Source of the DNA: Candidatus Zambryskibacteria bacterium RIFCSPHIGHO2_01_FULL_46_25 | Lineage (GTDB): Bacteria; Patescibacteriota; Minisyncoccia; Phycocordibacterales; Zambryskibacteraceae | Reading direction: 5' to 3' | Length of the DNA: 64,000 bases | NCBI GenBank assembly: GCA_001825155.1 | Contig: MHVH01000005.1 | Coordinates: 168,501-232,500, forward strand | Shown: in pieces, positions 4,960 to 48,824 of the stretch | How positions within the stretch are numbered: the stretch's first letter is position 1 | Layout: every line of letters starts with the position of its first letter | Made by a program: the position numbers and the translations under genes | The notes under the pieces: generated by a model | What the model was told of the DNA's origin: nothing | The model's database searches: none | The model's input: only the letters and a program-made list of their open reading frames with translations

Positions 4960-5330
4960 TAAAATACCACTCTTTTCAGAGTTTAGGAAGTACTGTGCCG
5001 ATGCTCTTCGGTCATCGTGTACAAGGTGGCTGGTTGGCAAGGTAGAGAAACTGTTCTCTTTTGCCCTAACGGCTCAGCAAGCTGAGCCGTTGGAAAACTA
5101 GACTTTCCGCTCATTCCATTCAAAAAAGTCTTATCACCGCCAACACTGAAAGTATGATAGCGGAAAGGCTGAGGAAGCGCTGTGCGCTTCCGAAGGGCCT
5201 TGAGCACCGAAGGTGCGAAAGGTGTACGGCGTCTGTAAGACGAGAGGCACGAGCACGCCCGCAGGGCGTGCGAGTTAGTTAGAATCAAGAATTTTTGATA
5301 AAGTAGGTTCGAGCAGACTCGTATAGAGCC
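4960..5330 (+). other. structured non-coding region of unknown family; ends in a tRNA-3'-like GGTTCGA...AGAGCCACCA
   Basis: About 370 nt without a credible ORF and dense in hairpins (GCACCttcgGTGC, GCACGCCCgcaGGGCGTGC, AACGGCTCAGCaagcTGAGCCGTT); its 3' end resembles the 3' half of tRNA-Leu; strand uncertain. Confidence 0.2.
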
Positions 5331-5422
5331 ACCATAGATGGGATAAAGCCCAATTCGGATAATTCGGATTTGGCTTGGCTGATGAAAACCCAAGGAATTT
5401 CGGGCACGGCGCGCGCTTCGCG
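5331..5422. repeat. left copy of a perfect 92-bp inverted repeat (partner 8581-8672); diverged similarity continues to about 5480
   Basis: Manual reverse-complement alignment gives 92/92 identity; begins with ACCA immediately after the tRNA-like 3' end. Confidence 0.9.
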
Positions 5423-5827
5423 CGAGTGGAGGTGTAGGTTCATAAAATTCAAAGCCAAAATATTTTCTGGAGGTTGATTTTAATACAAGGGTTCTGGGAG
5501 GTCGTACTTTTTAGTATGTGCTTGCCCCACCCGCCCGTGCGCGCACAAATTCTGCTCCCCTTAATGACATTCTCCATTTTACAACACTGATTATTCCTCC
5601 TGTCTTCTTGAAAAATCCTTATTTTATGATAGTTTATCGTCAGTGGCGATTCGTTCGCCACCAGAGTGCTCAACGGGAGAAGTTTGTTTACTCAAATTAC
5701 TCACAATGACGCACTCGCAACATTCAAGTAAGAAAGAAAGTTTTACTTTCCTTCCGAAAGGTGTTATCCTTAGTAGCGAGGCTGACCCAGCGTCGGCCTC
5801 GACTCCTAAGGGTACCGGTCCAAGTGG

Positions 5828-7084
5828 TTGTATGTTGGTTCGACTCCAACGGGATCGTCTATTGAAAAACATCTCAATTTACATTCAGTTTTCTCCTATT
5901 CAGAGTTTGGAAAAGCTTTTAACAAGCTAAAGAAAAAGAACAAATATAGGCAGACATCTGCAGATTTTAATTTAAAAGACCGATATTCCGACAAAAGAAT
6001 TCTAAACGCCCTAGGGAAATTCATACAGAAACATTCGAGCGATCAGGCAAGAGGATTGTATAGAGAAGTAGAAATCTACTCTCTTAGGCCATATAGGGGA
6101 ATTTCGATTTTAAAAAAGAGCGGGAAATATCGCCCACTTCTTGTTCCCTCTCCTTTGGATAGATTGGTATTTTTAACTGCGCTTCCAAGAATAAAAGGGT
6201 TGATTTATAAGAGACTTTTGAAATTTTCTGCTTTAGGGGTAGGCGTTAAGAGTGAGGAGGGATTAAAAATTACCATTGTATCTAATAAAATATTTGAAAA
6301 GGTTAAGCAGAAGAAAACGAGATATGTCCTTGCCTTAGATTTCCAGGACTTTTTCTCAACTATTCACAGAGATAAGCTGCACAGAAAACTTAAAACTATT
6401 TTTTCAAAAGCTGAAGAAAAAGAACTTTTGAAACTTTTAGTCTTGTCGATAAATAATCCTATAGAATCAGATGATCTTTTTAAAGCAAAATTTAAGAATC
6501 TTAATCTCGAGACAAGCGGAATTCCTCAAGGACTAGCGTACTCTCCATTACTAGCTAGTTTCTTTGCTACAAGTCTGGACGCCTTAGTGAGAAGAAACAA
6601 GTCAGTAATCTCGTACCGTTATTTAGATGATATGGTAATCATAGGGCCAAACAAAAGAAATCTTATAAAAATCTATAGAAAAATAAAAAGTTTTTCAGCT
6701 AAATTGGGTCTGAAGCTCCACGACCTTGGCGGAAAGACAAAAATATTACCAGTTATAAATCCCGATGATTCTTTCGATTTTCTCGGCATCTCTTTTTCTA
6801 AATCAGGTAAGCATATTACCAATCAAGCTATTAAGAAGTTTTTAGAAACCATAAAGACAGAAATCCTTACTGGGCGAGGATTAAGAACTTCTCCAGATAA
6901 TATCAAGAGGGTTTTTAAAGAATATGTCACTGGATGGAAACAATACTACTCGGCCATCTGCCCAGAGCACTATAAGGAAATAGCCCCAATTTTAGCAAAT
7001 GAAGTTCGTACTTATATGCTGAAAAAGAAAGCTTGGAAAAGGATATACCTAAGTGATGAAAATTTGTTTAACTTGAAGGAGTGA
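5828..7084 (+). CDS. reverse transcriptase (group II intron/retron-like prokaryotic RT; no intron RNA domains recognised)
   Basis: RT motifs RPLLVPSPLDRLV (RT2), LDFQDFFSTI (RT3), GIPQGLAYSPLLAS (RT4), YRYLDDMVII (RT5, YxDD), and thumb motif YVTGWKQYY; ORF opens with TTG, true start uncertain. Confidence 0.75.
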   Translation: MYVGSTPTGSSIEKHLNLHSVFSYSEFGKAFNKLKKKNKYRQTSADFNLKDRYSDKRILNALGKFIQKHSSDQARGLYREVEIYSLRPYRGISILKKSGKYRPLLVPSPLDRLVFLTALPRIKGLIYKRLLKFSALGVGVKSEEGLKITIVSNKIFEKVKQKKTRYVLALDFQDFFSTIHRDKLHRKLKTIFSKAEEKELLKLLVLSINNPIESDDLFKAKFKNLNLETSGIPQGLAYSPLLASFFATSLDALVRRNKSVISYRYLDDMVIIGPNKRNLIKIYRKIKSFSAKLGLKLHDLGGKTKILPVINPDDSFDFLGISFSKSGKHITNQAIKKFLETIKTEILTGRGLRTSPDNIKRVFKEYVTGWKQYYSAICPEHYKEIAPILANEVRTYMLKKKAWKRIYLSDENLFNLKE

Positions 7085-7191
7085 TATAATAAACTCGCAC
7101 TCAACCGATAATAAGTTGTCTTTTTAAATGGCCGTCTCGGGTCAGCTTAAGGCAACTTAGGTTGAGTGCACCGGGGCGGCCATTTAAGTTT

Positions 7192-8721
7192 ATGAAATAC
7201 TTTTTATACGTTAGAAAATCCACCGATGTTGAAGACAAGCAAGTGCTTTCTATTGAAGCGCAGCTTTCGGAATTGAGAACTATTGCTAAACATGATGAGC
7301 TAGAAATCGTAGAGGAGTTTATAGAAAAGCGAAGTGCAAAAGTTCCAGGCAGATCAATTTTTGAAGAAATGCTCCGCCGGATTGAAAAGGACGAAGCCGA
7401 AGGAATTATTTGCTGGAAAGTAGATAGACTTTCCAGAAATCCTGTAGACAGCGGACGTATCAGTTGGATGCTTCAGCAAAACATCATTCAAAAAGTTATC
7501 ACACACGATAGAGTTTATCTCCCGCAAGACAATGTGCTTATTATGTCTGTAGAGTTCGGGATGGCTAATCAATACATCAGAGATTTGAGTGTAAATACCA
7601 AACGAGGTTTAAGAGCCAAAGCCAGACAAGGTATTTACCCCAGTGTTGCGCCCCTAGGATATTTAAATGATGTAAGGAGTAAGACGATAGTTATAGATAG
7701 GAAGAAAAGCCTTATAGTCCGTAAAGCATTTGAGATGTATGCGGAAAATAAATATAACCAAGAAGATATAGCCAACTTTCTTTTCAAGAATGGTATTCAA
7801 AGCAGATTAATAAGAAGACCAGACGCAACTGGCGGTAAGCCCTTGAAGAGAGACCAGATTAAGTGGATCTTAGAAAGCCCTTTTTATTATGGAAACTTCT
7901 ACTATGCTGGCGAAGTTTGGGAAGGAAAACACAAACCCTTAATTTCAAAAAAGCTCTGGGATAAAGTCCAAGAAGTTTTGAAATTAAGAGGAAGGGTAAA
8001 GAAAGTTAAGACAGAACCTAAAGCATTTTCCGGACTTCTTTATTGTGGAGAATGTGGCTGTTCTATTACTGCCGAAAGACAAAAGGGACATATTTATTAT
8101 CGTTGCACCAAAAAGAAAGGTAAATGCTCACAGCCCTTTACTAGAGAGGAAGTTTTAGACTCCCAACTTTCGGCAATACTAACTTCCTTAGTATTGCCGA
8201 GTGAATGGGCTAAAGAATTAAATAAGATGTTGGATAAAGACGAAGCGGACATCACTCAATCCGCGACGGCGTCCGTCCAAGCTCTGCGGTCAGATGCGAT
8301 GGAGATAAACTCCAAGCTTGCCCGCATTACAGACCTCTTTGTGGAACAAGACATTGAGCGTGGAGAATACCTGGATAGGAAGAAAGCTCTAATGTCTCAA
8401 AAGAAGTCTGTAGAGGAACAAATCCTCTTACTTGAACGAGACGCTGCTAGATGGCTCGAACCGATGCGAGAATGGCTAAAGGTGGCTTCTAGCCTAGCTG
8501 AAGCCGCGCAATCGAACGACCTCCCCTCCAGAAAATCATACCTCCAGAAAATCTTTGGCTCGAACCTCACACTCCACTCACGCGAAGCGCGCGCCGTGCC
8601 CGAAATTCCTTGGGTTTTCATCAGCCAAGCCAAATCCGAATTATCCGAATTGGGCTTTATCCCATCTATGGTGGGTCAGGTGGGAATCGAACCCACATCC
8701 GCAGAGCGGACAACATTTTAA
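7192..8721 (+). CDS. large serine recombinase (resolvase/invertase N-domain, recombinase domain, zinc ribbon); ORF reads through the inverted repeat into tRNA-Leu
   Basis: MKYFLYVRKSTDVEDKQVLSIEAQ with catalytic-Ser context; zinc ribbon CGECGCS...YYRCTKKKGKC; ORF track starts at TTG 7162, ATG at 7192 is preferred; last ~50 aa are encoded by the inverted repeat and tRNA. Confidence 0.8.
   Translation: MKYFLYVRKSTDVEDKQVLSIEAQLSELRTIAKHDELEIVEEFIEKRSAKVPGRSIFEEMLRRIEKDEAEGIICWKVDRLSRNPVDSGRISWMLQQNIIQKVITHDRVYLPQDNVLIMSVEFGMANQYIRDLSVNTKRGLRAKARQGIYPSVAPLGYLNDVRSKTIVIDRKKSLIVRKAFEMYAENKYNQEDIANFLFKNGIQSRLIRRPDATGGKPLKRDQIKWILESPFYYGNFYYAGEVWEGKHKPLISKKLWDKVQEVLKLRGRVKKVKTEPKAFSGLLYCGECGCSITAERQKGHIYYRCTKKKGKCSQPFTREEVLDSQLSAILTSLVLPSEWAKELNKMLDKDEADITQSATASVQALRSDAMEINSKLARITDLFVEQDIERGEYLDRKKALMSQKKSVEEQILLLERDAARWLEPMREWLKVASSLAEAAQSNDLPSRKSYLQKIFGSNLTLHSREARAVPEIPWVFISQAKSELSELGFIPSMVGQVGIEPTSAERTTF
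8581..8672. repeat. right copy of the perfect 92-bp inverted repeat (partner 5331-5422); extended similarity to about 8490
   Basis: Exact reverse complement of 5331-5422; lies within the recombinase 3' coding region and ends at the CCA of tRNA-Leu. Confidence 0.9.
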
Positions 8722-8754
8722 GTGTTGCGCGTATACCTATTCCGCCACTGACCC
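8669..8754 (-). tRNA. tRNA-Leu (anticodon TAA), CCA encoded
   Basis: Manual cloverleaf: acceptor GGGTCAG/CTGACCC, anticodon arm CAACA-CTTAAAA-TGTTG, long variable arm, T-arm GGGTTCGATTCCC. Confidence 0.85.
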
Positions 8755-8756
8755 AG

Positions 8757-8829
8757 AGGCGTAGAGGGGAATCGAACCCCTGCAATAACAGTTTTGCAGA
8801 CTGTCGCGTTACCACTTCGCCACTACGCC
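8757..8829 (-). tRNA. tRNA-Cys (anticodon GCA)
   Basis: Acceptor GGCGTAG/CTACGCC, anticodon loop CTGCAAA, T-arm GGGGTTCGATTCCCC. Confidence 0.8.
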
Positions 8830-8900
8830 AAAACCACTATTACCATACCATAAAATGTTGAAAAACGGTTCGATTAATGAGATACTATGCTTTGTTTGTT

Positions 8901-8973
8901 GCGCCCATAGCTCAGCTGGTAGAGCAGATCCCTCTTAAGGATAAGGTCCAAGGTTCGATCCCTTGTGGGCGCA
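8901..8973 (+). tRNA. tRNA-Lys (anticodon CTT)
   Basis: Acceptor GCGCCCA/TGGGCGC, D-arm GCTCAGCTGGTAGAGC, anticodon loop CTCTTAA, T-arm CAAGGTTCGATCCCTTG. Confidence 0.8.
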
Positions 8974-8977
8974 CAAT

Positions 8978-9059
8978 GCCGAGGTGGCGAAATTGGCAGA
9001 CGCGCCAGCTTTAGGAGCTGGTACCGCAAGGTGTGGAGGTTCAAGTCCTCTCCTCGGCA
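8978..9059 (+). tRNA. tRNA-Leu (anticodon TAG)
   Basis: Acceptor GCCGAGG/CCTCGGC, anticodon arm CCAGC-TTTAGGA-GCTGG, long variable arm, T-arm GGAGGTTCAAGTCCTCT. Confidence 0.85.
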
Positions 9060-9089
9060 CACTGCATTTATGAAGAAAGAAAAATAAAC

Positions 9090-10973
9090 ATGCTAGAAGG
9101 AACAATACGCGTAACCGGCAAGGGTGTCGGCTATTTTGAGGACCCGCAAGGCGGAGACGACTTCGAAATACAGCCGGAGAATCTTAAGGCCGCCTTAAAC
9201 CGCGATACCGTAATCGTCGAACCTACCGGCAAAGAAATTTATGGTCGGAAACAGGCCAAAGTGGTCGAGATTCTCGAGCGCCACAAGACGGAATTCGTCG
9301 GCACTTTCGATGATGGCTTCATGATTCCGGATGATAAGCGGATGTACCGAGACATCTTTGTCGAGGATCCTAAGGGAGCAAAAAATGGCGACAAGATACA
9401 AGTCCATCTCACGTCCTGGGAAGACCCTTCCAAAAGCCCCAAGGGCGAGATACTCCGCGTCATTGGGCGCGCCGGCGAGCACAATGCCGAGATGGTCGGC
9501 ATTGTTTTGGAAAGTGGATTCGAAATCGACTTCCCTCCCGAAGTGGAAAGCGAAGCCGAGGCTTGGAAGGAAAGATATGAAAAGGAGGATAAGCTCAAGA
9601 ATCGGCGTGACTTTAGTGAAGTCACGACCTTCACCATCGACCCGGCGGACGCCAAGGACTTCGACGACGCTATTTCTTTGAAAAAACTTGAGAACGGTGA
9701 TTATGAAATCGGCGTGCATATCGCCGACGTATCCCACTTCGTTACTCCCGGCACAGCGCTTGACAAAGAAGCGGTAAAAAGAGGCACGTCCATCTACCTC
9801 GTCGACCGCACCATTCCCATGCTTCCGGAAGTGCTTAGTAACGACCTTTGCTCGCTTAATCCCAACGAACCCAAATATGCCTTCTCCGCCGTCTTCGTCA
9901 TGGATAAGAATGCGAAGGTGAAGGACCGCTGGTTCGGCAAAACTCTTATCGAGTCGGATAAAAGATTTACCTACGAAGAAGCGCAGGAAATATTGGATAA
10001 AAAGTCCGGAACATATTACGAAGAATTGAAAACCTTAAACGACCTGGCCTACAAACTTCGCGAAGAGAAGTTCAGGAAGGGCGCCATTGAATTCGAAACC
10101 GAGGAAGTGAAGTTCGAGCTCGACGAGCTCGGCAAGCCCATACGCGTATACAAGAAGGAACGCAAGGACACGCACAAACTGGTGGAAGATTTCATGCTCC
10201 TCGCAAATCGAGAGGTGGCGACACACATGCATACGGCATACAAAAGCAATGCGCGCGCCGCTTTTGTCTATCGCATACACGACGCTCCGGACAGAGAAAA
10301 AATCGTGAATCTTGCCACGTTTGTAAAAGCACTTGGCTTCGAACTCAAGAACAGGGACGGCGAGACTACGGCGGAAGATATTACAAAGATGCTCAAGTCA
10401 GTCGAAGGCACTCCGACAGAAATGTTGGTAAAAACTGCCGCCATCCGCTCCATGAGCAAGGCCATTTACTCAACCAGTAATATCGGCCACTTCGGTCTGG
10501 CATTTGAATATTATACTCACTTCACCTCCCCCATCCGCCGATATCCCGACCTTATGGTGCATCGTCTACTTCAGCGCTTCATCGAGCAGGGGCAAATTGA
10601 GCAGGACGAGATTATCAAATACCAGAGACTCTGCGACGACTCTTCTGAGCGCGAGATGGAAGCGGCCGAGGCGGAGCGCGCATCTATCAAGTACAAGCAA
10701 GTAGAGTACATGCAGGAGCACGTGGGCGAAGAATTCGACGCTATCATCTCCGGCGTCTCGGAGTGGGGCATTTATGTAGAAGAAGTGAATACCAAGGCTG
10801 AAGGTATGGTCAAGCTCCGTGATATGAAAGACGATTTTTATGAATTAAATGAGAAGCTCTACGCCATCGTCGGTCAGAAATCCGGCAAGAAATACTCCCT
10901 CGGCGATAAAGTCCGCGTCAAACTCATCGCCTCAGATCCAGAGAGAAAGACTCTTGACTTTGCATTTGTTTAG
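9090..10973 (+). CDS. rnr: ribonuclease R (VacB/RNase II family 3'-5' exoribonuclease)
   Basis: RNB-domain motifs HFGLAFEYYTHFTSPIRRYPDLMVHR, C-terminal S1-like domain; start moved to ATG 9090 to avoid overlap with tRNA-Leu. Confidence 0.85.
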   Translation: MLEGTIRVTGKGVGYFEDPQGGDDFEIQPENLKAALNRDTVIVEPTGKEIYGRKQAKVVEILERHKTEFVGTFDDGFMIPDDKRMYRDIFVEDPKGAKNGDKIQVHLTSWEDPSKSPKGEILRVIGRAGEHNAEMVGIVLESGFEIDFPPEVESEAEAWKERYEKEDKLKNRRDFSEVTTFTIDPADAKDFDDAISLKKLENGDYEIGVHIADVSHFVTPGTALDKEAVKRGTSIYLVDRTIPMLPEVLSNDLCSLNPNEPKYAFSAVFVMDKNAKVKDRWFGKTLIESDKRFTYEEAQEILDKKSGTYYEELKTLNDLAYKLREEKFRKGAIEFETEEVKFELDELGKPIRVYKKERKDTHKLVEDFMLLANREVATHMHTAYKSNARAAFVYRIHDAPDREKIVNLATFVKALGFELKNRDGETTAEDITKMLKSVEGTPTEMLVKTAAIRSMSKAIYSTSNIGHFGLAFEYYTHFTSPIRRYPDLMVHRLLQRFIEQGQIEQDEIIKYQRLCDDSSEREMEAAEAERASIKYKQVEYMQEHVGEEFDAIISGVSEWGIYVEEVNTKAEGMVKLRDMKDDFYELNEKLYAIVGQKSGKKYSLGDKVRVKLIASDPERKTLDFAFV

Positions 10974-10998: not shown

Positions 10999-11208
10999 AT
11001 GAAAAAGCAGTTGACGAGCATCTTTGCGCTGTCTCTCTTCTCCCTGACCTTTCCTCTCGTGTTGATTTGCGCATTTTTCTACGGCGCAATGTGGGGGAAT
11101 TTCACGTTCAACTACGACGAGGAGAGGGGGCGAGAAGCGATCCAGAATCTGTTTCTCAACCCTTGCGGGAAGATCATTTCCTGGGGTTGGGATAAGGTCG
11201 CAGCGTAA
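10999..11208 (+). CDS. small hydrophobic hypothetical protein
   Basis: 69-aa ORF with strong RBS AGAGGAGGGG 6 nt upstream; N-terminal hydrophobic segment. Confidence 0.4.
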   Translation: MKKQLTSIFALSLFSLTFPLVLICAFFYGAMWGNFTFNYDEERGREAIQNLFLNPCGKIISWGWDKVAA

Positions 11209-11230
11209 TCCATTGCTCCGCCAATCTCAC

Positions 11231-11260
11231 CGCCGGCGCGCACGCGCCGGCGGCTTTCAT
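11231..11260 (+). terminator. GC-rich hairpin, probable rho-independent terminator
   Basis: CGCCGGCGCG-cac-GCGCCGGCGG followed by CTTTCATT. Confidence 0.4.
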
Positions 11261-11303
11261 TACAAATTTTAACAAACCTTCCACTCTAACTGAACCTCTC
11301 CCC

Positions 11304-11337
11304 CCATTATTTTCCAGCTATAGCGTAGAAATAATGG
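11304..11337. repeat. quasi-palindromic ~34-bp repeat, copy 1 (partner 11908-11941), just downstream of the PaaX-like gene
   Basis: CCATTATTTTCCAGCTATAGCGTAGAAATAATGG versus CCATTATTTTCTAGCTATAGCTTAATTATAATGG; direct repeats, each with palindromic ends CCATTAT/ATAATGG and core AGCTATAGC. Confidence 0.85.
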
Positions 11338-11344
11338 GGATGAC

Positions 11345-11911
11345 TTATATAAGGTCGAAATCCATTCTTAAATATTTATCATTCTCTATTTGATCAGCGA
11401 TGATGTAGAGCATATTCTTCCCTATCCCATAATTGGTCTTGAGGAGTCCGATGACATCTTCGCAATCATAAGGATAAACCCAGACGCTGTCCTGTAGTCT
11501 TAAAAAACCCGACGATTTGAGTATCTCCCTCACCTCGTCTCTCACTTTCTTCATCTTTTCCGGAATATCGAAAATTATGATCCTCCATTTTCTATCCCAT
11601 CTTTTTGGCTTAGGAATTCTATAATCATCCATTTCCCATTGGCGAAGAACCTTTTCTCCATCCGTTGTGAGAAAATATTTCCCACTTTTAAATTCCACCA
11701 ATCCTTTCCTTCTCAGGCGCGAAACCGCGGAGTATATAATATCTTTCTTTCTAGAAGATATTGGAATATCCAGATCAAGAAAATAATTCAGAACACTCGG
11801 CAAAAGGTCCGAGGAGCCCCTTCTGCCTCCAGAAGCTATCGAGACAAGAATCGCCTCCTGAACTTTCGATTTATTTATGGACTTCCTGGCTTTTCTTTCT
11901 AGCTCTCCCAT
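11345..11911 (-). CDS. PaaX-family regulator-like protein (N-terminal wHTH plus C-terminal Cas2-like/PaaX_C domain), paralog 1
   Basis: WRIIIFDIPEKMKKVRDEVREILKSSGFLRLQDSVWVYP matches the PaaX C-domain / Cas2-like pattern; 60-70% identical in the C-terminal half to ORF 22404-22976. Confidence 0.7.
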   Translation of the reverse strand: MGELERKARKSINKSKVQEAILVSIASGGRRGSSDLLPSVLNYFLDLDIPISSRKKDIIYSAVSRLRRKGLVEFKSGKYFLTTDGEKVLRQWEMDDYRIPKPKRWDRKWRIIIFDIPEKMKKVRDEVREILKSSGFLRLQDSVWVYPYDCEDVIGLLKTNYGIGKNMLYIIADQIENDKYLRMDFDLI

Positions 11912-11941
11912 TATTTTCTAGCTATAGCTTAATTATAATGG
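11908..11941. repeat. quasi-palindromic repeat, copy 2, overlapping the start codon and promoter region of the PaaX-like gene
   Basis: See 11304-11337. Confidence 0.85.
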
Positions 11942-11990
11942 AAATATGATATTTTGAAAATTTAGGAAAGAAAGACACTTGACTTCCAGT

Positions 11991-22335: not shown

Positions 22336-22346
22336 GTTGTTCTCTT

Positions 22347-22380
22347 ACACAATAACCCTACGACCGTTTGCTTATTGTGT
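22347..22380. repeat. quasi-palindromic repeat upstream of PaaX-like paralog 2 (partner 22976-23012)
   Basis: ACACAATAACCCTACGACCGTTTGCTTATTGTGT versus ACACATAATAAGCTTACGACCGTTGGCTTATTATGTG; direct repeats with inverted ends. Confidence 0.8.
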
Positions 22381-22403
22381 AGTAAGATGTAAATTAAAGA
22401 AAA

Positions 22404-22976
22404 ATGGGAAAGCTAGAAGAAATCAGTAAGAAAAATACCCGAAAGACGAGAATCCACGAAACTCTCCTTCTTGCGCTAGTCTCGGGCGGAAGAAGGGGTG
22501 GAGATATACTGATAAGGCAAGTGGTTGATTCACTTCTTAAAACCGACTTCTCCCTCACTTCCCCACGCATAAGCGACACAGTGAAGTCTGCTGCGCAACG
22601 CTTGAGCCGGAGAGGTTTAATAGCATTCGAGGACGGACATTACTCACCCACCGTAAGCGGGAAGAAACTATTGGCAAAATGGCAGAGAACAAATTATAAA
22701 ATCAAAATCCCGAAAAAATGGGACAAGAAGTGGCGGGTGATCATTTTTGACATACCTGAGAAGAAACGGAAAATCCGCGATCACATCAGAGAAATACTTA
22801 TTGCCACCGGGTTCATTCGGTTACAGGACAGCGTATGGGTATACCCATATGACTGTGAGGATGTAATCGGGCTTATAAAAACAGAACTGCGAATCGGTCG
22901 GTATCTTTTGTATATGATCGTCGACCAGATCGAGGACGACCGGTTCCTACGAATGGATTTCGACCTCATTCGCTAA
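22404..22976 (+). CDS. PaaX-family regulator-like protein (wHTH plus Cas2-like C-domain), paralog 2
   Basis: WRVIIFDIPEKKRKIRDHIREILIATGFIRLQDSVWVYPYDCEDVIGL; paralog of 11345-11911. Confidence 0.7.
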   Translation: MGKLEEISKKNTRKTRIHETLLLALVSGGRRGGDILIRQVVDSLLKTDFSLTSPRISDTVKSAAQRLSRRGLIAFEDGHYSPTVSGKKLLAKWQRTNYKIKIPKKWDKKWRVIIFDIPEKKRKIRDHIREILIATGFIRLQDSVWVYPYDCEDVIGLIKTELRIGRYLLYMIVDQIEDDRFLRMDFDLIR

Positions 22977-23012
22977 CACATAATAAGCTTACGACCGTTG
23001 GCTTATTATGTG
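22976..23012. repeat. quasi-palindromic repeat immediately downstream of the PaaX-like paralog 2 stop codon
   Basis: See 22347-22380. Confidence 0.8.
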
Positions 23013-31032: not shown

Positions 31033-32117
31033 TAGAAAATATTCCTAACGTCCCTTATGGTAATAAGTATCATCAGGAAGATTAGCAGGGCGAAACCGGC
31101 GGCATTCACGGCGTTGAAAAATCTGACGGGAATCTTCCTCCTGGTAATCGATTCCATGCCTACGAAGAGTAGCCTGCCTCCGTCAAGGGCCGGGAACGGC
31201 AGAAGATTGATTATCGAGAGATTTATAGAAAGAAGTGCGGTGAAGGTGACGAGATAGCCCCAGCCGAGATTGCGTATATCCCCCACCATACCGACAATTC
31301 CCACCGGTCCGGTTACGGACGCTAGGTCCGCCTTACCGACAAACGCCCGACCTATTAATCCGACAATCGCTTTGGCCGTAAGAGTGGTGAGAGAAGCTGT
31401 GGTCTTAAGCCCTTCCCATACAGCCCGATGCGCCGGCAACTTCACCGTCCCGATAGTTTCCATGGATATGCCGACTGCTTTCTGTCCCGGCAAAATGCCT
31501 TCCTTTGGAGTTACTGTCTTCTGCGAAATGTCCTTGCCCCTCTGAATTTCAAAGGCAATGGACCCTGAAGAATTTTTTATATACCTTGTCGCCTCTTCCG
31601 GAGTAAGGTTCAGAATCACATCTCCTGCCTTGAGGCCCGACAAAGCAGCCGGGGATTCCGGCACTACGAGCGTTATCACGGTGCGCGGATTCTCAACGGG
31701 TAAGGAAGTGCTCGCGGGCGATGGTATACCTGTGATAAAACCGAGAGAGATGAGCAACCAAGCGAAAAGGAAATTGAAGAAGACGCCCGCCGCGAGCACG
31801 GTAGCCTGTATGCCACGATTTTTGGATTGAAAATTATCTGGATCAAGACCTCTCCCCTTCCCCTCTCCTAAATTAGGAGAGGGCTGGGTGAGGTCGGTCT
31901 CTGAATTCTCCCCAAAAATTTTTACAAAGCCGCCGAAAGGCAGCCAGTTGAGCGTGAAATCAGCTCCCTTCCATTTAAAAATCTTTTTGGCGCGAGGCGG
32001 GTAGCCCAGGCCGAATTCGTCCACGCGTATGCCAAAAAACCTTGCCGCGAGAAAATGCCCAAGCTCATGCACTACGATAAGCGCGCTTAAAATTATTAAG
32101 AAGATTATTATTGACAT
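31032..32117 (-). CDS. rseP: RIP metalloprotease RseP (site-2 protease, M50 family)
   Basis: HELGHFLAARFFGIRV zinc motif, PDZ domain, C-terminal TM helices; contains an in-frame palindromic repeat insert. Confidence 0.85.
   Translation of the reverse strand: MSIIIFLIILSALIVVHELGHFLAARFFGIRVDEFGLGYPPRAKKIFKWKGADFTLNWLPFGGFVKIFGENSETDLTQPSPNLGEGKGRGLDPDNFQSKNRGIQATVLAAGVFFNFLFAWLLISLGFITGIPSPASTSLPVENPRTVITLVVPESPAALSGLKAGDVILNLTPEEATRYIKNSSGSIAFEIQRGKDISQKTVTPKEGILPGQKAVGISMETIGTVKLPAHRAVWEGLKTTASLTTLTAKAIVGLIGRAFVGKADLASVTGPVGIVGMVGDIRNLGWGYLVTFTALLSINLSIINLLPFPALDGGRLLFVGMESITRRKIPVRFFNAVNAAGFALLIFLMILITIRDVRNIF
31855..31896 (-). repeat. palindromic mini-repeat copy 3, inserted in frame inside rseP
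   Basis: CCCTCTCCTaaattAGGAGAGGGctgGGTGAGGTC; encodes ...DLTQPSPNLGEGKGRG... in RseP. Confidence 0.85.
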
Positions 32118-44135: not shown

Positions 44136-44460
44136 AGGTATTTAAAGTATTGTCGCGCATTTCCTCGAAGCCCGATTCGAGCTCGATTGACTCGATGCCC
44201 TCCTTCAAGCCACCGAAGCTATCCTTCAAACCCTCGAAACTCGACTCAATGCCACGGAGAAAGGAGCCGAAGGGGTTGGCCGATTCAACGGATTTGTTGA
44301 CGCTCGCTGCTTGCCCTGAGCTTGTCGAAGGGTTACCACCAAAATTGACAGTAGCCCACACAGCGAAAATAAGAAGAGTGAATCCGCCCGAAGCAAGAAA
44401 GGCGAAACGCTTCTTGTGACTTGGAGACCTTTTATGCAGAGTTGAGAGATATGTTCTCAT
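44125..44460 (-). CDS. hypothetical small membrane protein (overlaps the gyrA start)
   Basis: 111-aa ORF with one TM helix; translationally coupled to gyrA. Confidence 0.35.
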
Positions 44461-45726: not shown

Positions 45727-46929
45727 ATGTCATTATTTTCATTTGGTAAAAAAGCCCCGACGCTCGAAGAGGTCGGGGTCCCGACCCAGCCTGAAGCTGG
45801 CGTCGGGAAAGAGATTAAAAAAGTAAAAAGGGTTAAAAAAACCAAGGAAGCTCCTGAAGCTAACCAAGCTAACGAAGCTATTTCAAGCTACCTTGAGAAG
45901 ATTCCCACTCCCCCGGCGATAGACGACCTCGTCGAAGGGTCGGTCATCTCTATAGACAAGGGCGCGGTCTACGTGGACCTGCCGCCCTTTGGCACCGGTA
46001 TTATCTACGGGCGCGAATTCCAGAATGCCAGAGACATCATCAAGAAGATTAATGTCGGCGACATTGTCGCGGGCAAGGTCGTGGGTGTGGGTGGCAAAGA
46101 GGGTTATATCGAAATTTCGCTCAAGGAAGCTCGCCAGGCCATCATATGGAACGAAGCCGAGGACGCTATTCGCGAGAAGCGCACATTCGAACTCCCTATC
46201 ACAGATGCCAACAAGGGCGGGCTCATCATAAACTGGCAGGGCATTACCGGATTCCTCCCCGCTTCCCAACTCAAGCCCGAGCATTATCCTCGCATCTCCG
46301 ACGGCGACAAAGACAAGATTCTCGATGAATTGAAGAAGCTCGTGGGCGAGAAGCTCTCCGTCACCATCATCGGCGTCAATCCGAAGGAGGGTAAACTTAT
46401 CTTCTCCGAGAAATCGCCGGAAACCAAAGATAAGGAAAATATTGTTTCCCGCTACGCGCTGGGTGACGAGCTTACCGGCGAAGTGACCGGTCTTGTGGAC
46501 TTCGGAGTGTTTGTGAAGATTGAGGAAGGACTCGAGGGCTTGGTCCACATTTCCGAAATTGATTGGGGCCTCGTTGAGAATCCGAAAACTATGTTCAAGA
46601 TCGGCGAGAAGGTGAAGGTGAAAGTCATCGAGATAAAGGATGGCAAAATTTCCCTCTCCATCAAGGCCTTGAAAGAGAATCCTTGGCGTGAAGCGGAGAA
46701 GAAATACAAGAAGGATGACGTCGTCGAAGGTGTCATCATCAAGTTCAACAAGCACGGCGCTCTCGCCTCTATCGAGGAAGGTGTTGCCGGTCTCATTCAC
46801 ATCTCAGAATTCGGCTCCGAGGAGAAACTGCGTGAGAAACTCGAAATGGGCAAGGTGTATTCCTTCAAGATTACCCTCTTCGACCCCAAGGAACAGAAGA
46901 TGGCGCTCTCATACGTAGAGAAGAAATAA
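45727..46929 (+). CDS. rpsA: S1 RNA-binding domain protein (ribosomal protein S1-like, about 4 S1 repeats)
   Basis: Repeated S1 motifs (GSVISIDKGAVYVDL..., GEVTGLVDFGVFVKIEEGLEGLVHISE..., VEGVIIKFNKHGALASIEEGVAGLIHISE). Confidence 0.7.
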   Translation: MSLFSFGKKAPTLEEVGVPTQPEAGVGKEIKKVKRVKKTKEAPEANQANEAISSYLEKIPTPPAIDDLVEGSVISIDKGAVYVDLPPFGTGIIYGREFQNARDIIKKINVGDIVAGKVVGVGGKEGYIEISLKEARQAIIWNEAEDAIREKRTFELPITDANKGGLIINWQGITGFLPASQLKPEHYPRISDGDKDKILDELKKLVGEKLSVTIIGVNPKEGKLIFSEKSPETKDKENIVSRYALGDELTGEVTGLVDFGVFVKIEEGLEGLVHISEIDWGLVENPKTMFKIGEKVKVKVIEIKDGKISLSIKALKENPWREAEKKYKKDDVVEGVIIKFNKHGALASIEEGVAGLIHISEFGSEEKLREKLEMGKVYSFKITLFDPKEQKMALSYVEKK

Positions 46930-46954: not shown

Positions 46955-46974
46955 CACTATGATATATCATAGTG
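46955..46974. repeat. perfect 20-bp palindrome CACTATGATATATCATAGTG (second copy in trxB at 54666-54685)
   Basis: Read directly; preceded by TTAGGATTTAGGATTTT, related to the tsaD TTAGGATT repeats. Confidence 0.9.
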
Positions 46975-47063
46975 CCTTCATACATCGATTTTCTGCTATA
47001 GCCTGAGATAGATGTATACGTTATCTTTTCGCTGCAGCGAAATTATAACGTATGTGCAAATTT

Positions 47064-47621
47064 TTAGGTATTGTTTTTTAATTCCAGCTGATAAATTTGG
47101 GTATCGTAACCGCGGAGTTCTTCGTCGGCGCGGGAGAGACCCAGCATTTCGAGTTCTTTGAACAATTCTTCGCGAACTTTTTCCGGATTGGCGTCGTCCG
47201 GGCAAAGCTTCTCAAGTTCGACGTAAGTGCCGAGTTTTTCCACGTCATCAAGACAGATTTCATAAATGCCGAGCTTGCCCTTGCGGCGAATTTTCCTCAC
47301 CTCGATCATCGGCACCCAGCCTAAAGTTTCCAAAATTTTGCTGGTTTCTTCCGCATCATCAATTTCGGTTTCGTATTCAAGATTATCTCCCTCATTTGAG
47401 CGCTGTTGCTTGAGATTCAACTGAATTTTATCCTTCATTCTTCTAATACGCATAATAATGTCACCCTCTTTAGCCTGACTAAACTCATTGGCAGAGCCCT
47501 TGAGCGCGTAAATAACGTCATGTTGACTTATCGGCTTAGACAGTTCGCGTCCCTTCTCTCCGAGCTTTCGCTCAAGCTCTGTGAAATTACCCGCTTTCAG
47601 TTTTATTTCTATTTCTCTCAT
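47064..47621 (-). CDS. CYTH-domain protein (class IV adenylate cyclase / triphosphatase family)
   Basis: MREIEIKLK...start with ExExK and later acidic motifs typical of CYTH. Confidence 0.55.
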   Translation of the reverse strand: MREIEIKLKAGNFTELERKLGEKGRELSKPISQHDVIYALKGSANEFSQAKEGDIIMRIRRMKDKIQLNLKQQRSNEGDNLEYETEIDDAEETSKILETLGWVPMIEVRKIRRKGKLGIYEICLDDVEKLGTYVELEKLCPDDANPEKVREELFKELEMLGLSRADEELRGYDTQIYQLELKNNT

Positions 47622-48215: not shown

Positions 48216-48824
48216 ATGCCTCCTGAGAATTTACAACCCGCCCTTCGACAAGCTCAGGGCAAGCCAACCGAAAATTTCTGGAAAGAACTTTTCAAGCTCG
48301 TTTTGCTCGCGGTCGTCATAGTTATCCCCTTCCGACTTTATGTCGCTCAGCCCTTCATCGTCGATGGGCTTTCCATGTATCCGACCTTCGACAACGGACA
48401 CTATCTCATCATTGACGAAGTCTCGTATCGCTTCCGAGAGCCAGCGCGCGGCGATGTACTTGTTTTTAAGGCACCACCAAACCCAGAAAAGTATTACATC
48501 AAGCGCCTCATAGGCTTTCCCGGCGAGACGATAATGATAAACGATGGTCAAGTAACGATAACCAATAAAGAAAATCCGGACGGATTCAAATTGGCCGAGC
48601 CTTATGTCAAATTTCCCAAGGACGAGGTCCTGACCATAATTCTCGAAGAGAACGAGTACTTCGTCATGGGTGACAACCGCGCTTCGAGCTCGGATTCCCG
48701 CGTCTGGGGGCCGTTGCCGAAGGAAAATATTATAGGCCGTCCGGTCATGCGATTCTTTCCTCCGGCGCTATTCCCCGGAGACATCTCGCACTTTGAGGCA
48801 AGGCTTAACGCAAACGACGAGTGA
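48216..48824 (+). CDS. lepB: signal peptidase I
   Basis: Catalytic Ser GLSMYPTF, Lys box YIKRLIG, GDNRASSSDSRVWG. Confidence 0.85.
   Translation: MPPENLQPALRQAQGKPTENFWKELFKLVLLAVVIVIPFRLYVAQPFIVDGLSMYPTFDNGHYLIIDEVSYRFREPARGDVLVFKAPPNPEKYYIKRLIGFPGETIMINDGQVTITNKENPDGFKLAEPYVKFPKDEVLTIILEENEYFVMGDNRASSSDSRVWGPLPKENIIGRPVMRFFPPALFPGDISHFEARLNANDE

What the first reader, a model, noticed from the sequence alone, without database searches (positions are those of the whole stretch)
11304..11941. PaaX-like (wHTH plus Cas2-fold) regulator gene bracketed by its own quasi-palindromic direct repeats, copy 1
The gene at 11345-11911 encodes a PaaX-family architecture whose C-domain follows the Cas2/VapD-like pattern (IIFDIPE...VREIL...G..RLQDSVWVYP). 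A 34-bp imperfect palindrome (CCATTAT...AGCTATAGC...ATAATGG) overlaps its start codon and recurs just past its stop in a convergent intergenic region where it has no neighbouring promoter to regulate. The gene therefore looks like a cassette framed by direct repeats, or an autoregulated unit with a second, orphan operator.
Basis: partly seen in the sequence, partly recalled or inferred. Interest (0 to 1): 0.55.

Follow-up and report, generated by a model that had tools for sequence, protein, structure and literature searches.

The report
Repressor gene bracketed by own operators
A small DNA-binding protein gene of an ultra-small (Parcubacteria) bacterium sits between two copies of its own 36-bp palindromic binding site, and this layout holds across a large, undescribed protein family that databases often mislabel as the CRISPR protein Cas2.

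Summary
Gene 11345-11911 (-) encodes a 188-aa "mini-PaaX": a winged helix plus the PaaX central Cas2-like domain, with no PaaX C-terminal domain. A 36-bp quasi-palindrome overlaps its -10 box and start codon (11907-11942) and recurs 6 nt past its stop (11303-11338).

It is not a local oddity. A 53%-identical paralogue (22404-22976) is bracketed by a different palindrome. About 70 of 79 homologous loci from Parcubacteria genomes have the same layout, and each gene's downstream copy best matches its own upstream copy. Genomes carry several paralogues (at least 7 in one) with distinct sites, and at least the window's second copy sits in conserved synteny.

Residues in the recognition helix and, unexpectedly, in helix alpha-1 of the Cas2-like domain co-vary with operator bases.

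Best reading: a PaaX-type dimeric autorepressor with two cognate operators, the downstream one auxiliary (looping or roadblock). What that second site does is unproven.

A pattern scan also found many gene-less "solo" sites at gene 3' ends, often as exactly abutting pairs of different sites. One such pair lies in this window (46981-47052). A REP/RAYT-like or chromosome-organising role therefore remains open.

It is not Cas2, not true PaaX, not phage-borne, and I found no description in the searchable literature.

The parts
11345..11911 (-). Gene for a 188-aa mini-PaaX protein: N-terminal helix, winged helix-turn-helix, Cas2-like (PaaX_M) domain. It has no PaaX C-terminal domain.
   Evidence: ORF. 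Pfam PF20803 E=1e-20. AF2 model with pLDDT 73 shows wHTH plus a beta-alpha-beta-beta-alpha-beta domain. Best PDB fold hits are PaaX 8a39 and Rv0674 3kfw, then Cas2 proteins.
11907..11942 (.). Promoter-proximal 36-bp quasi-palindrome, the inferred primary operator. It contains the start codon (11909-11911) and the -10 box; the dyad centre is at 11924/11925.
   Evidence: (PWM score 31.9).
11932..11937 (-). -10 hexamer TATAAT of the gene's predicted promoter, lying inside the palindrome's distal arm. The predicted transcription start is near the dyad centre, giving an SD-less leader of about 14 nt.
   Evidence: Promoter scan, 10 of 12 matches. Across the family an exact TATAAT sits at this arm position in 34 of 70 upstream copies versus 9 of 70 downstream copies. 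SD-less or leaderless starts are the norm in this genome.
11955..11960 (-). -35-like hexamer TTTTCA, 17 nt upstream of the -10.
   Evidence: This is weak evidence: no conserved -35 appears across the family.
11303..11338 (.). Stop-proximal 36-bp quasi-palindrome, the inferred second or auxiliary operator. It starts 6 nt after the stop codon; the dyad centre is at 11320/11321, 604 bp from the first site.
   Evidence: 14 of 18 symmetric pairs; PWM 25.7. It is conserved in the 84%-identical relative L081 while the surrounding intergenic DNA has indels.
11230..11253 (+). Context only: intrinsic terminator (GC hairpin plus T-run) of the convergent + strand unit (RNase R 9033-10973 and small ORF 10999-11208).
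22404..22976 (+). Paralogue ('copy 2'), 190 aa and 53% identical.
   Evidence: tblastn E=2e-68. Orthologues with the same flanking genes occur in L018, L006, L011, L014, L013 and L008.
22346..22381 (.). Upstream 36-bp palindrome of the paralogue (TACACAATAAC...GTTTGCTTATTGTGTA), a different sequence class. Its centre is 40 nt before the ATG.
22977..23012 (.). Downstream 36-bp palindrome of the paralogue. It starts directly after the stop codon and is 85% identical to the paralogue's upstream copy.
46981..47016 (.). Gene-less ('solo') family-type palindrome TACATCGATTTTCTGCTATAGCCTGAGATAGATGTA, the left half of an abutting doublet in a convergent intergenic region.
   Evidence: PWM 24.8, sequence, neighbouring genes S1 and CYTH. 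No terminator is predicted there.
47017..47052 (.). Gene-less family-type palindrome TACGTTATCTTTTCGCTGCAGCGAAATTATAACGTA, the right half of the doublet (gap 0).
   Evidence: PWM 37.1, 16 of 18 symmetric pairs. The same kind of exactly abutting heterotypic doublet was recorded 18 times in metagenome contigs; some are the same doublet in related contigs.

Best explanation
The gene encodes a PaaX-type homodimeric DNA-binding protein, and the two 36-bp palindromes are its own double-stranded DNA binding sites.

Each half-site appears to be read twice. The winged-helix recognition helix reads the outer arm (bases 1-8). Helix alpha-1 of the Cas2-like dimerisation domain reads the inner bases next to an invariant C-N4-G core.

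Binding at the upstream site covers the -10 box, the predicted transcription start and the ATG, so the protein represses its own synthesis. The second site, just beyond the stop codon, is an auxiliary operator for the same protein. Most probably it raises occupancy of the promoter site by cooperative binding across a roughly 600-bp loop that encloses the whole gene. Alternatively, or in addition, it acts as a bound-protein roadblock at the gene's 3' end.

What is shown: the sequence architecture, its conservation, the site-to-gene specificity and the residue-base covariation. What is inferred: binding, repression, dimer or tetramer state and looping.
For: 1. Family-wide architecture. 74 upstream and 75 downstream PWM sites were found in 80 genome loci. 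In 70 loci with both copies, the gene's own downstream copy is the best of 70 candidates in 45 loci and second best in 11. Self identity is 29.9/36 versus 20.3/36 for non-self pairs. The layout is also present in distant members L158 and L157 and in the window's paralogue with a different sequence.

2. Operator placement. The dyad centre is exactly 17 nt before the ATG in 48 of 70 loci. An exact TATAAT sits in the distal arm of 34 of 70 upstream copies but only 9 of 70 downstream copies. At this locus the promoter scan scores 10 of 12.

3. Symmetry profile. Dyad symmetry spans exactly 36 bp, is strong at the core and arms and near background at k=7-9, as expected for a symmetric protein site. 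E. coli PaaX binds TGATTC-N27-GAATCA and represses its own promoter (review PMC9493321), which gives the same widely spaced half-site geometry.

4. Covariation that holds in both major clades and in a second data set. Residue 58 Y goes with G4. Residue 125 D goes with C14, K/Q with G14, N with T14. Residue 121 K goes with G15. Sister-pair contrasts give p=9e-4, 1e-3 and 3e-3, while control residues give p=1.

5. DNA-level rather than RNA-level constraint. Mismatched symmetric pairs show no G:U bias on the sense strand (61 versus 59).

6. Purifying selection. In the 84%-identical relative both sites keep their arms and core while the flanking intergenic DNA has indels.

7. No alternative promoter target. 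In 24 of 76 loci, including this one, neither site faces a neighbouring promoter.
Against: - No binding, repression or oligomerisation data exist.
- Nothing computational distinguishes looping from roadblock or decoy roles. Centre-to-centre spacing (593-715 bp) shows no clear helical phasing.
- A symmetric dimer does not explain why the two copies also agree at non-symmetric positions, mostly in direct orientation (50 versus 14 loci, p=7e-6).
- Gene-less solo sites of the same sequence classes are frequent in a pattern-based sample: 49 solo versus 66 gene-flanking. They lie mainly at gene 3' ends and often as exactly abutting heterotypic doublets. The protein's role is therefore probably wider than self-regulation.
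- Several paralogues per genome share a nearly invariant C-terminal domain and differ mainly in DNA address. That is unusual for signal-responsive regulators.
Confidence: 0.55

Rival explanations
1. A REP/RAYT-like, selfish or domesticated system. The palindromes are short mobile or formerly mobile elements, and the flanked gene encodes their cognate handling protein: a site-specific wHTH plus a Cas2-derived nuclease or strand-transfer domain. Each paralogue keeps its own orthogonal repeat class. Solo sites and doublets are dispersed copies that survive where insertion is harmless, at gene 3' ends.
For: - The gene is flanked on both sides by its cognate palindrome, with several paralogues per genome each having its own class.
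- Solo copies of the same classes lie elsewhere, mostly at 3' ends or in convergent regions.
- The same 72-bp doublet is found in at least three unrelated flanking contexts.
- The two copies share non-symmetric positions in direct orientation, like a duplication.
- Sites flip in place between orthologous loci, and in L001 the downstream copy is the exact reverse complement of the upstream one.
- The effector domain is conserved, the specificity domain is diversified, and the Cas2 beta-1 Asp is retained.
Against: - Copy number per class is low. This 64-kb window holds only 6 sites in 4 classes, and there were about 6 non-flanking sites in 470 kb around genes.
- The gene loci checked keep their flanking genes across genomes.
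- No known transposase or recombinase chemistry is present (no HUH, DDE, Tyr or Ser recombinase hit).
- No cassette is ever found abutting a solo site, and no gene remnants lie next to 73 solos.
- There are no relatives in viral contigs.
- The fixed overlap of the upstream copy with the -10 box and ATG is a regulatory signature.
Confidence: 0.15
2. A 3'-end marking, insulating or chromosome-organising system. The main job of these proteins is at sites placed just after stop codons (their own downstream site, solos and doublets). There the bound dimers block read-through or convergent transcription, or bridge same-class sites into loops. The upstream site only sets the protein's own level.
For: - 20 of 26 well-placed solos lie next to a gene's 3' end: 9 in convergent regions and 11 stop-proximal in co-directional regions.
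- The cassette's second site is always 0-52 nt past the stop codon.
- The window doublet lies between convergent genes with no predicted intrinsic terminator.
- Exact abutment (gap 0) of two different sites recurs 18 times, which suggests side-by-side binding of two paralogues.
- The invariant C-terminal domain could mediate a common effector or bridging function.
Against: - Several solos and doublets lie beyond a normal intrinsic terminator (L126, L115), and the paralogue at 22404-22976 has its own terminator about 50 nt past its downstream site. A roadblock is therefore not obviously needed.
- There is no reason in this model for several different specificities.
- ORF calls around the solos were crude.
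- The 3'-end bias is equally expected for neutral insertions.
Confidence: 0.15
3. RNA-level elements. The palindromes act as transcribed hairpins (a 3' stabiliser or terminator, and a 5' hairpin hiding the start codon in read-through transcripts), possibly bound by the Cas2/VapD-like domain.
For: The downstream copies would fold stably as RNA (-19.5 and -18.4 kcal/mol, z = -3.7 and -4.5). They lie in the 3' UTR. Cas2 and VapD relatives have been reported as RNases (background knowledge).
Against: - Mismatches show no G:U tolerance bias on the sense strand (61 versus 59).
- Symmetry is strongest at k=2-4, which would be hairpin loop, and weakest at k=7-9, mid-stem.
- No T-run follows the sites.
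- The predicted transcription start at the dyad centre leaves only half of the upstream palindrome in the mRNA.
- There is no Rfam match.
- Recognition-helix covariation points to duplex DNA read-out.
Confidence: 0.05

Closest known systems
PaaX, the phenylacetyl-CoA-responsive repressor of the paa operons (E. coli, Pseudomonas; PDB 8a39, 3l09, 3kfw)
   Same: N-terminal winged helix followed by the Cas2-like central domain (PF20803 E=1e-20; best fold hits). A long palindromic operator with widely spaced half-sites (TGATTC-N27-GAATCA) and repression of its own promoter (PMC9493321).
   Different: It has no C-terminal PaaX domain. The TIGR02277 score is 42.7 bits against a cut-off of 264.55. No paa genes are adjacent (the neighbours are SMC and RNase R). 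There are several paralogues per genome. A second operator sits beyond the stop codon. Inner operator bases co-vary with the Cas2-like helix alpha-1.
Cas2, the CRISPR adaptation protein (with VapD-like relatives)
   Same: A ferredoxin-like beta-alpha-beta-beta-alpha-beta fold, with fold hits to many Cas2 structures. The beta-1 'FDIPE' motif has an invariant Asp. TIGR01573 scores 29.3 bits, above its 24.5 cut-off, which probably explains why NCBI records name homologues 'CRISPR-associated endonuclease Cas2'.
   Different: HMM matches cover only model positions 2-39 of 96. The domain is fused to a DNA-binding domain. No CRISPR-like array was found in the window, and the immediate neighbours are SMC and RNase R. 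Covariation suggests a sequence-reading role on duplex DNA rather than backbone-only contacts.
Repressors with auxiliary operators and DNA looping (LacI O1/O2, GalR OE/OI, lambda CI OR/OL flanking cI)
   Same: Two cognate palindromic operators for one repressor, hundreds of bp apart. One overlaps the promoter and the other lies downstream with no promoter of its own. In lambda the repressor gene lies between the two operator regions.
   Different: Here the pair brackets exactly one short monocistronic gene (593-715 bp centre to centre), and this is a family-wide rule. Oligomerisation is unknown.
REP elements and their RAYT (TnpA-REP) genes ('REPtrons'); BIMEs and REPINs
   Same: A gene flanked by its cognate extragenic palindromes. 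Several paralogues each have their own repeat class. Further copies lie at gene 3' ends, often as doublets of different repeat types.
   Different: The protein is unrelated (no HUH/Y1 fold). Copy number is low. The upstream copy is built into the promoter and start codon. The doublets abut with zero spacer.

Membership tests
PaaX family (transcriptional repressor of phenylacetate catabolism) | [quoted passage not shown] | tested here: met
   The AF2 model shows H37-45, H53-68 and a wing at 72-81. Weak Pfam wHTH hits fall at residues 53-93. Foldseek's top hit is PaaX 8a39 over 196 columns.
PaaX family (transcriptional repressor of phenylacetate catabolism) | Central Cas2-like domain (Pfam PF20803 PaaX_M) | tested here: met
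   E=1e-20, 74.1 bits against a cut-off of 24, residues 103-176.
PaaX family (transcriptional repressor of phenylacetate catabolism) | C-terminal helical PaaX domain (PF08223), implicated in effector response | tested here: not met
   The protein ends at residue 188, directly after the Cas2-like domain, and has no PaaX_C hit. Homologues are uniformly about 188-190 aa.
PaaX family (transcriptional repressor of phenylacetate catabolism) | Equivalog-level sequence match (TIGR02277, cut-off 264.55 bits) | tested here: not met
   42.7 bits, partial match over residues 57-159.
PaaX family (transcriptional repressor of phenylacetate catabolism) | Genomic linkage to paa catabolic genes | tested here: not met
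   The flanking genes are an SMC-like ATPase and RNase R. The other neighbours examined were S1, CYTH, Pth, PBP2 and MreC. Not every ORF of the window was profiled.
PaaX family (transcriptional repressor of phenylacetate catabolism) | Long palindromic operator with widely spaced half-sites overlapping its own promoter | tested here: met
   A 36-bp dyad overlaps the -10 box and ATG, compared with TGATTC-N27-GAATCA for PaaX. Actual binding cannot be tested with these tools.
Cas2 (CRISPR adaptation) | Full-length match to Cas2 profiles | tested here: not met
   TIGR01573 scores 29.3 bits (above its 24.5 cut-off), but only model positions 2-39 of 96 are matched. PADLOC Cas2 models also match only the first 35-40 positions or so.
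Cas2 (CRISPR adaptation) | Encoded next to cas1 and a CRISPR array | tested here: not met
   No regularly spaced repeat array was found in the 64-kb window. The immediate neighbours are SMC and RNase R. Several dispersed paralogues occur per genome. A cas1 profile search of all ORFs was not run.
Cas2 (CRISPR adaptation) | Conserved metal-binding Asp at the end of beta-1 | tested here: met
   D115 in the 'FDIPE' motif is invariant in 26 of 26 aligned sequences. Catalytic activity cannot be tested here.
REP / RAYT (REPtron) | HUH/Y1 (IS200/IS605-like) transposase | tested here: not met
   No such Pfam, NCBIfam or PADLOC hit. The fold is wHTH plus Cas2-like.
REP / RAYT (REPtron) | Gene flanked by its cognate palindromic repeats | tested here: met
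   Orientation at the asymmetric positions is mostly direct (50 versus 14 loci).
REP / RAYT (REPtron) | Many dispersed extragenic copies of the same repeat in the genome | tested here: inconclusive
   The window holds 6 sites in 64 kb, and the two classes of the resident genes have no third copy. Metagenome contigs selected by pattern hold 49 solos versus 66 gene-flanking sites. Per-genome counts could not be obtained.
Looping repressors with auxiliary operators | Two or more cognate operators for one repressor, one of them at the promoter | tested here: met
   Sequence-level evidence only.
Looping repressors with auxiliary operators | Repressor forms tetramers or higher oligomers that bridge operators | not testable with these tools
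   Only a monomer model could be made. The spacing shows no clear helical phasing.
Toxin-antitoxin (VapD-type) | Two-gene module with a cognate partner gene | tested here: not met
   The unit is monocistronic between unrelated housekeeping genes. Neighbour identity and orientation vary between paralogues.

The most novel reading that the evidence does not exclude
Parcubacteria carry an orthogonal set of Cas2-fold 'address readers'. These are paralogous wHTH plus Cas2-like dimers in which the Cas2-like helix alpha-1 itself reads bases. Each recognises a private 36-bp palindrome that brackets its own gene and also marks a few other chromosomal positions (gene 3' ends, exactly abutting heterotypic doublets). 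In this reading the system is not ordinary gene regulation. It is either a REP/RAYT-like self-propagating repeat-protein partnership built on a Cas2-derived domain, or a protein-DNA code that loops or insulates the tiny chromosome.
Probability: 0.15. Interest if true: 0.85.

Novelty: new variant of a known kind. Interest (0 to 1): 0.62.

Why it matters
1. Annotation. Hundreds of Patescibacteria proteins are named 'CRISPR-associated endonuclease Cas2' in public records. They are DNA-binding mini-PaaX proteins with no CRISPR context, which can distort surveys of CRISPR in these bacteria.

2. A candidate major DNA-binding family. Several paralogues per roughly 1-Mb genome suggest one of the larger site-specific DNA-binding families in organisms with very few regulators. 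Its function is unknown.

3. A testable recognition code. The covariation (residue 58 with base 4; residues 121 and 125 with bases 15 and 14) assigns base reading to a Cas2-fold helix. That bears on how Cas2, VapD and PaaX domains evolved. It also offers a set of naturally orthogonal repressor/36-bp-operator pairs.

4. An unusual regulatory design. A repressor gene bracketed exactly by two copies of its operator, conserved across a whole family, plus the unexplained abutting doublets at gene 3' ends, can be tested directly with purified protein.

Tried and rejected
- **Chance repeat.** Rejected: 0 of 100 shuffles gave a match, and no shuffle gave a palindrome of 14 or more of 18 pairs.
- **High-copy REP-like element unrelated to the gene.** Rejected for this window (6 sites, 4 of them gene-flanking) and for the 470 kb around homologues (149 flanking sites versus about 6 others).
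- **True Cas2 or CRISPR.** Rejected: the HMM match is partial and no array was found.
- **True PaaX.** Rejected: no C-terminal domain, sub-threshold score, no paa genes nearby.
- **Known defence system or phage protein.** PADLOC gave only partial Cas2 hits and PHROGs nothing meaningful. There were no relatives in IMG/VR.
- **Known RNA family.** No Rfam match.
- **Sense-strand RNA hairpin.** No G:U bias was found.
- **Downstream copy as a promoter for a neighbour.** Neighbour orientation is mixed, with 43 convergent, and TATAAT is not retained.
- **Intrinsic terminator.** No T-run follows the site.
- **Solos as scars of recently decayed genes.** No family fragments lie within 800 nt either side of 73 solos (positive control).
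- **Solos as integration sites for cassettes.** No cassette ever abuts a solo.
- **Helical phasing of the two sites.** Not informative.
- **Empty-site comparison for this locus.** The only distant genome with the SMC/RNase R neighbourhood (L080) is too diverged to align.
- **Literature.** Searches for PaaX with Cas2, Patescibacteria or Parcubacteria found nothing relevant.
- **Sequence search of the PDB.** It gave only Rv0674 at E=0.035.
Full report
**1. Checking the observation**

The ORF 11345-11911 on the minus strand (188 aa, ATG start) is present. Its product matches Pfam PaaX_M, the 'PaaX central Cas2-like domain', at E=1e-20 over residues 103-176. Weak winged-helix hits fall at residues 53-93, and no PaaX C-terminal domain is detected.

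The repeat is real. Positions 11303-11337 and 11907-11941 are 86% identical over 35 nt (D14). The 21-mer CCATTATTTTCYAGCTATAGC occurs only at these two places in 64 kb even when three mismatches are allowed, against none in 100 shuffles.

Each copy is a quasi-palindrome with arms CCCCATTATTT/AAATAATGGGG and core GCTATAGC. One copy contains the start codon and, on the gene's strand, a TATAAT at 11937-11932 with a TTTTCA 17 nt upstream. The other starts 6 nt after the stop codon. It lies in a convergent intergenic region that also holds the terminator of the opposing RNase R unit.

**2. The arrangement is a rule, not a local accident**

A paralogue in the same window (22404-22976, 53% identical) is bracketed in the same way by a different 36-bp palindrome at 22346-22381 and 22977-23012.

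The protein has more than 885 close homologues, nearly all 188-190 aa. They come from Patescibacteria/Parcubacteria, especially Candidatus Zambryskibacteria, and many are named 'CRISPR-associated endonuclease Cas2' by NCBI. A profile search finds 258 clusters (at 50% identity) at E<=1e-30.

A scan of one genome per species found 531 loci. Among the best 80, single assemblies contribute up to 7 paralogues.

I extracted the flanks of these loci and found the following.
- About 70 of 79 loci have a family-type palindrome both at the start and 0-52 nt after the stop.
- A position weight matrix built from these sites finds 74 upstream, 75 downstream and only about 6 other sites in 470 kb.
- Across 70 loci, the gene's own downstream copy is the best match to its upstream copy in 45 and the second best in 11. 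Identity is 29.9/36 for self pairs versus 20.3/36 for non-self pairs.
- Distant members (L158, L157) keep the layout with yet other sequences.
- An 84%-identical relative in the same SMC/RNase R context keeps the arms and core of both sites, while the surrounding intergenic DNA has indels.

**3. Anatomy of the site**

The consensus is TAC(A/G)TTATAAT-nnn-(G)CTATAG(C)-nnn-ATTATAA(C/T)GTA. Dyad symmetry extends over exactly 36 bp. It is strong at k=2-4 from the centre and at k=10-18, and close to background at k=7-9 and beyond k=18.

In 48 of 70 loci the dyad centre is exactly 17 nt before the ATG, so the last base of the palindrome is the A of the start codon. An exact TATAAT occupies the distal arm in 34 of 70 upstream copies but only 9 of 70 downstream copies. 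The mirror position has it in 3 versus 3.

The upstream copy is therefore a promoter -10 box, transcription start, start codon and operator in one. The downstream copy is not a promoter. SD-less and leaderless starts are normal in this genome, so the predicted short SD-less leader is not a problem.

**4. The protein**

The AlphaFold model (pLDDT 73) shows an N-terminal helix, a winged helix and a beta-alpha-beta-beta-alpha-beta domain. The best PDB fold matches are E. coli PaaX (8a39) and Rv0674 (3kfw), followed by many Cas2 structures.

The C-terminal domain is nearly invariant among paralogues, including the FDIPE and LQDSVWVYPYDCED motifs. The N-terminal part varies.

PaaX binds TGATTC-N27-GAATCA and represses its own promoter (review PMC9493321). 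That gives the same geometry of widely spaced half-sites.

**5. Covariation links protein and site**

- Recognition-helix residue 58 is Y when base 4 is G (32 of 33) and I/V/T when base 4 is A.
- More surprising is residue 125, on helix alpha-1 of the Cas2-like domain, which tracks base 14. D goes with C, K/Q with G and N with T.
- Residue 121, one helical turn away, tracks base 15: K goes with G in 43 of 50.
- These rules hold within both major clades and in an independent set of metagenome cassettes.
- In 45 nearest-neighbour contrasts, a change of residue goes with a change of base at p=9e-4, 1e-3 and 3e-3. Control residues give p=1.
- Asp-cytosine and Lys-guanine are classical read-out pairs (background knowledge).

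I infer that the Cas2-like dimer lies over the centre of the operator and reads bases, while the winged helices read the arms. This is inference from covariation, not structure.

**6. What the second site is not**

- It does not serve a neighbouring promoter. The downstream neighbour is convergent in 43 loci and co-directional in 36, and in 24 of 76 loci neither site faces another promoter.
- It is not an intrinsic terminator, because no T-run follows it.
- It shows no sign of selection as a sense-strand RNA hairpin. G:U-type and A:C-type mismatches number 61 and 59, and symmetry is highest where a hairpin loop would be, although the RNA would fold stably.
- It matches no Rfam family.
- The gene is not on a currently active mobile element. 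The window's second copy keeps its flanking genes in six genomes and this copy in two closer relatives. No relative occurs in viral contigs.

**7. A complication: solo sites**

The window itself holds two further family-type palindromes with no family gene nearby. They abut exactly, at 46981-47016 and 47017-47052, between the convergent S1-domain and CYTH genes.

To sample sites without reference to the gene, I scanned metagenome contigs for TACGTTAT-N7-CTATAG-N7-ATAACGTA and obtained 74 loci.
- Of the exact matches, 24 were upstream and 22 downstream of a family gene. 26 were solo and well inside contigs, and 15 were solo near contig ends.
- With the matrix, the counts in those loci were 31 upstream, 35 downstream, 49 solo, and 23 solo near contig ends.
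- No family-gene fragment lies within 800 nt either side of any of 73 solos.
- Solos fall into the same sequence classes as gene-flanking sites.
- 20 of 26 lie next to a gene's 3' end.
- Exactly abutting pairs of different sites (zero gap) were recorded 18 times, always solo with solo, some being the same doublet in related contigs.
- One such 72-bp doublet occurs in at least three unrelated flanking contexts.

These proteins therefore very probably have a few additional chromosomal sites, and self-regulation is unlikely to be their whole function.

**8. Unexplained features**

At non-symmetric positions the two copies of a gene still agree, mostly in direct orientation: 308 direct versus 171 inverted matches, and 50 versus 14 loci, p=7e-6. 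In some loci, such as L001, the downstream copy is instead the exact reverse complement of the upstream one. A site also flips in place between orthologous loci L126 and L097.

A symmetric dimer does not require this. Possible causes are gene conversion or template switching between quasi-palindromes, or an origin by duplication. Spacing between the two sites (593-715 bp, median 625) shows no clear helical phasing.

**9. Interpretation**

The best-supported mechanism is a PaaX-type dimeric autorepressor whose gene is bracketed by two cognate operators. The upstream site blocks the promoter. The downstream site is an auxiliary operator acting through a loop of about 600 bp, or a roadblock at the gene's end.

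My confidence differs by step.
- About 0.8 that both palindromes are binding sites of the encoded protein.
- About 0.7 that the upstream site mediates autorepression.
- About 0.3 that the downstream site acts by looping.
- 0.55 for the whole statement.

Rivals are as follows.
- A REP/RAYT-like selfish or domesticated repeat-protein partnership (0.15).
- A 3'-end insulating or chromosome-organising system (0.15).
- RNA hairpins (0.05).

**10. Comparison with known systems and novelty**

It works like PaaX and like looping repressors with auxiliary operators. It is not a member of PaaX proper: it has no C-terminal domain, scores 42.7 against 264.55 bits, and has no paa genes nearby. It is not Cas2 either: the profile match is partial and there is no CRISPR context.

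In layout it resembles REP/RAYT units, but the protein is unrelated and copy number is low.

I found no paper in the searchable library that mentions PaaX together with Cas2, Patescibacteria or Parcubacteria. I therefore rate it a new variant of a known kind, with a modest chance of being something more unusual.

Noticed in passing
window 46981-47052: Two different family-type 36-bp palindromes abut exactly (gap 0), with no family gene nearby, between the convergent S1-domain (45727-46929) and CYTH (47064-47621) genes. No intrinsic terminator is predicted there. The same kind of heterotypic zero-gap doublet recurs 18 times in metagenome contigs.
   Followed up: yes
window 46955-46974 and about 54662-54685: An unrelated perfect 20-nt palindrome, CACTATGATATATCATAGTG, occurs just before the solo doublet and again inside the thioredoxin-reductase-like ORF 54031-54945 (I5). 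It may be the operator of another regulator.
   Followed up: no
loci L029, L038, L052, L053, L043, L051, L033, L013 and others, 50-100 nt upstream of the family gene's ATG: A DnaA-box-like 9-mer (TTATCCACA or its complement, up to 1 mismatch) is strongly enriched at the -35 region of about 19 of 79 family promoters, against about 0.9 expected. It is absent at both window copies. This may link a subset of paralogues to DnaA.
   Followed up: partly
L042:1346-1381 and L056:148-183: A third copy of the gene's own palindrome class lies about 1.6 kb upstream. It ends in GTATGGG and opens a 74-aa ORF (MGETKR...), followed by a GC-rich opposite-strand ORF and a TrmB-like regulator gene. It may be a relic of a disrupted cassette.
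   Followed up: partly
L001, L017 (cassettes); L126 versus L097/L130 (solo doublet): Quasi-palindromes flip in place. In L001 the downstream copy is the exact reverse complement of the upstream copy, and one member of an orthologous doublet is inverted between related contigs. Many solos are longer, perfect palindromes (up to 44-48 bp, for example CCCCATACG...CGTATGGGG) that mirror the ATGGG start context.
   Followed up: partly
window 5326-5441 and 8562-8677, with ORFs 5828-7084 and 7162-8721 and tRNAs 8669-9060: A 116-nt inverted repeat (95% complementary) brackets a 3.1-kb segment that encodes a large serine-recombinase-like protein. It abuts a cluster of four tRNA genes, and one arm overlaps tRNA-Leu. 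This may be an integrated element (I1).
   Followed up: no
window 50659-50680 and 50866-50887: A perfect 22-nt inverted pair (each arm contains the palindrome TGCAACAC-CGAG/CTCG-GTGTTGCA) lies just upstream of the start of gene 50189-50851 (-) and again about 180 nt inside it. A TATAAT sits 8 nt before the ATG. This looks like another two-operator arrangement for an unknown regulator (I14).
   Followed up: no
whole window (47 long ORFs): Only 13 of 47 genes have an SD-like 4-mer upstream. Several have a TATAAT-like box 7-8 nt before the ATG, which suggests that leaderless or short-leader mRNAs are common in this organism.
   Followed up: partly
public annotation of homologues (P0034, P0036, P0044, P0047, P0059 and others): NCBI records name these wHTH-fused proteins 'CRISPR-associated endonuclease Cas2'. 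The TIGR01573 model passes its cut-off on a partial match covering positions 2-39 of 96. This is a probable systematic misannotation in Patescibacteria.
   Followed up: partly
window 44309-44332 / 48241-48264 and 31861-31895 / 59727-59761: Two further long inverted pairs lie kilobases apart: a 24-nt perfect pair (GCTTGCCCTGAGCTTGTCGAAGGG) and a 35-nt hairpin-containing repeat at 89% (CCCTCTCCTAAATTAGGAGAGGG...). Their nature is unknown (I10, I2).
   Followed up: no
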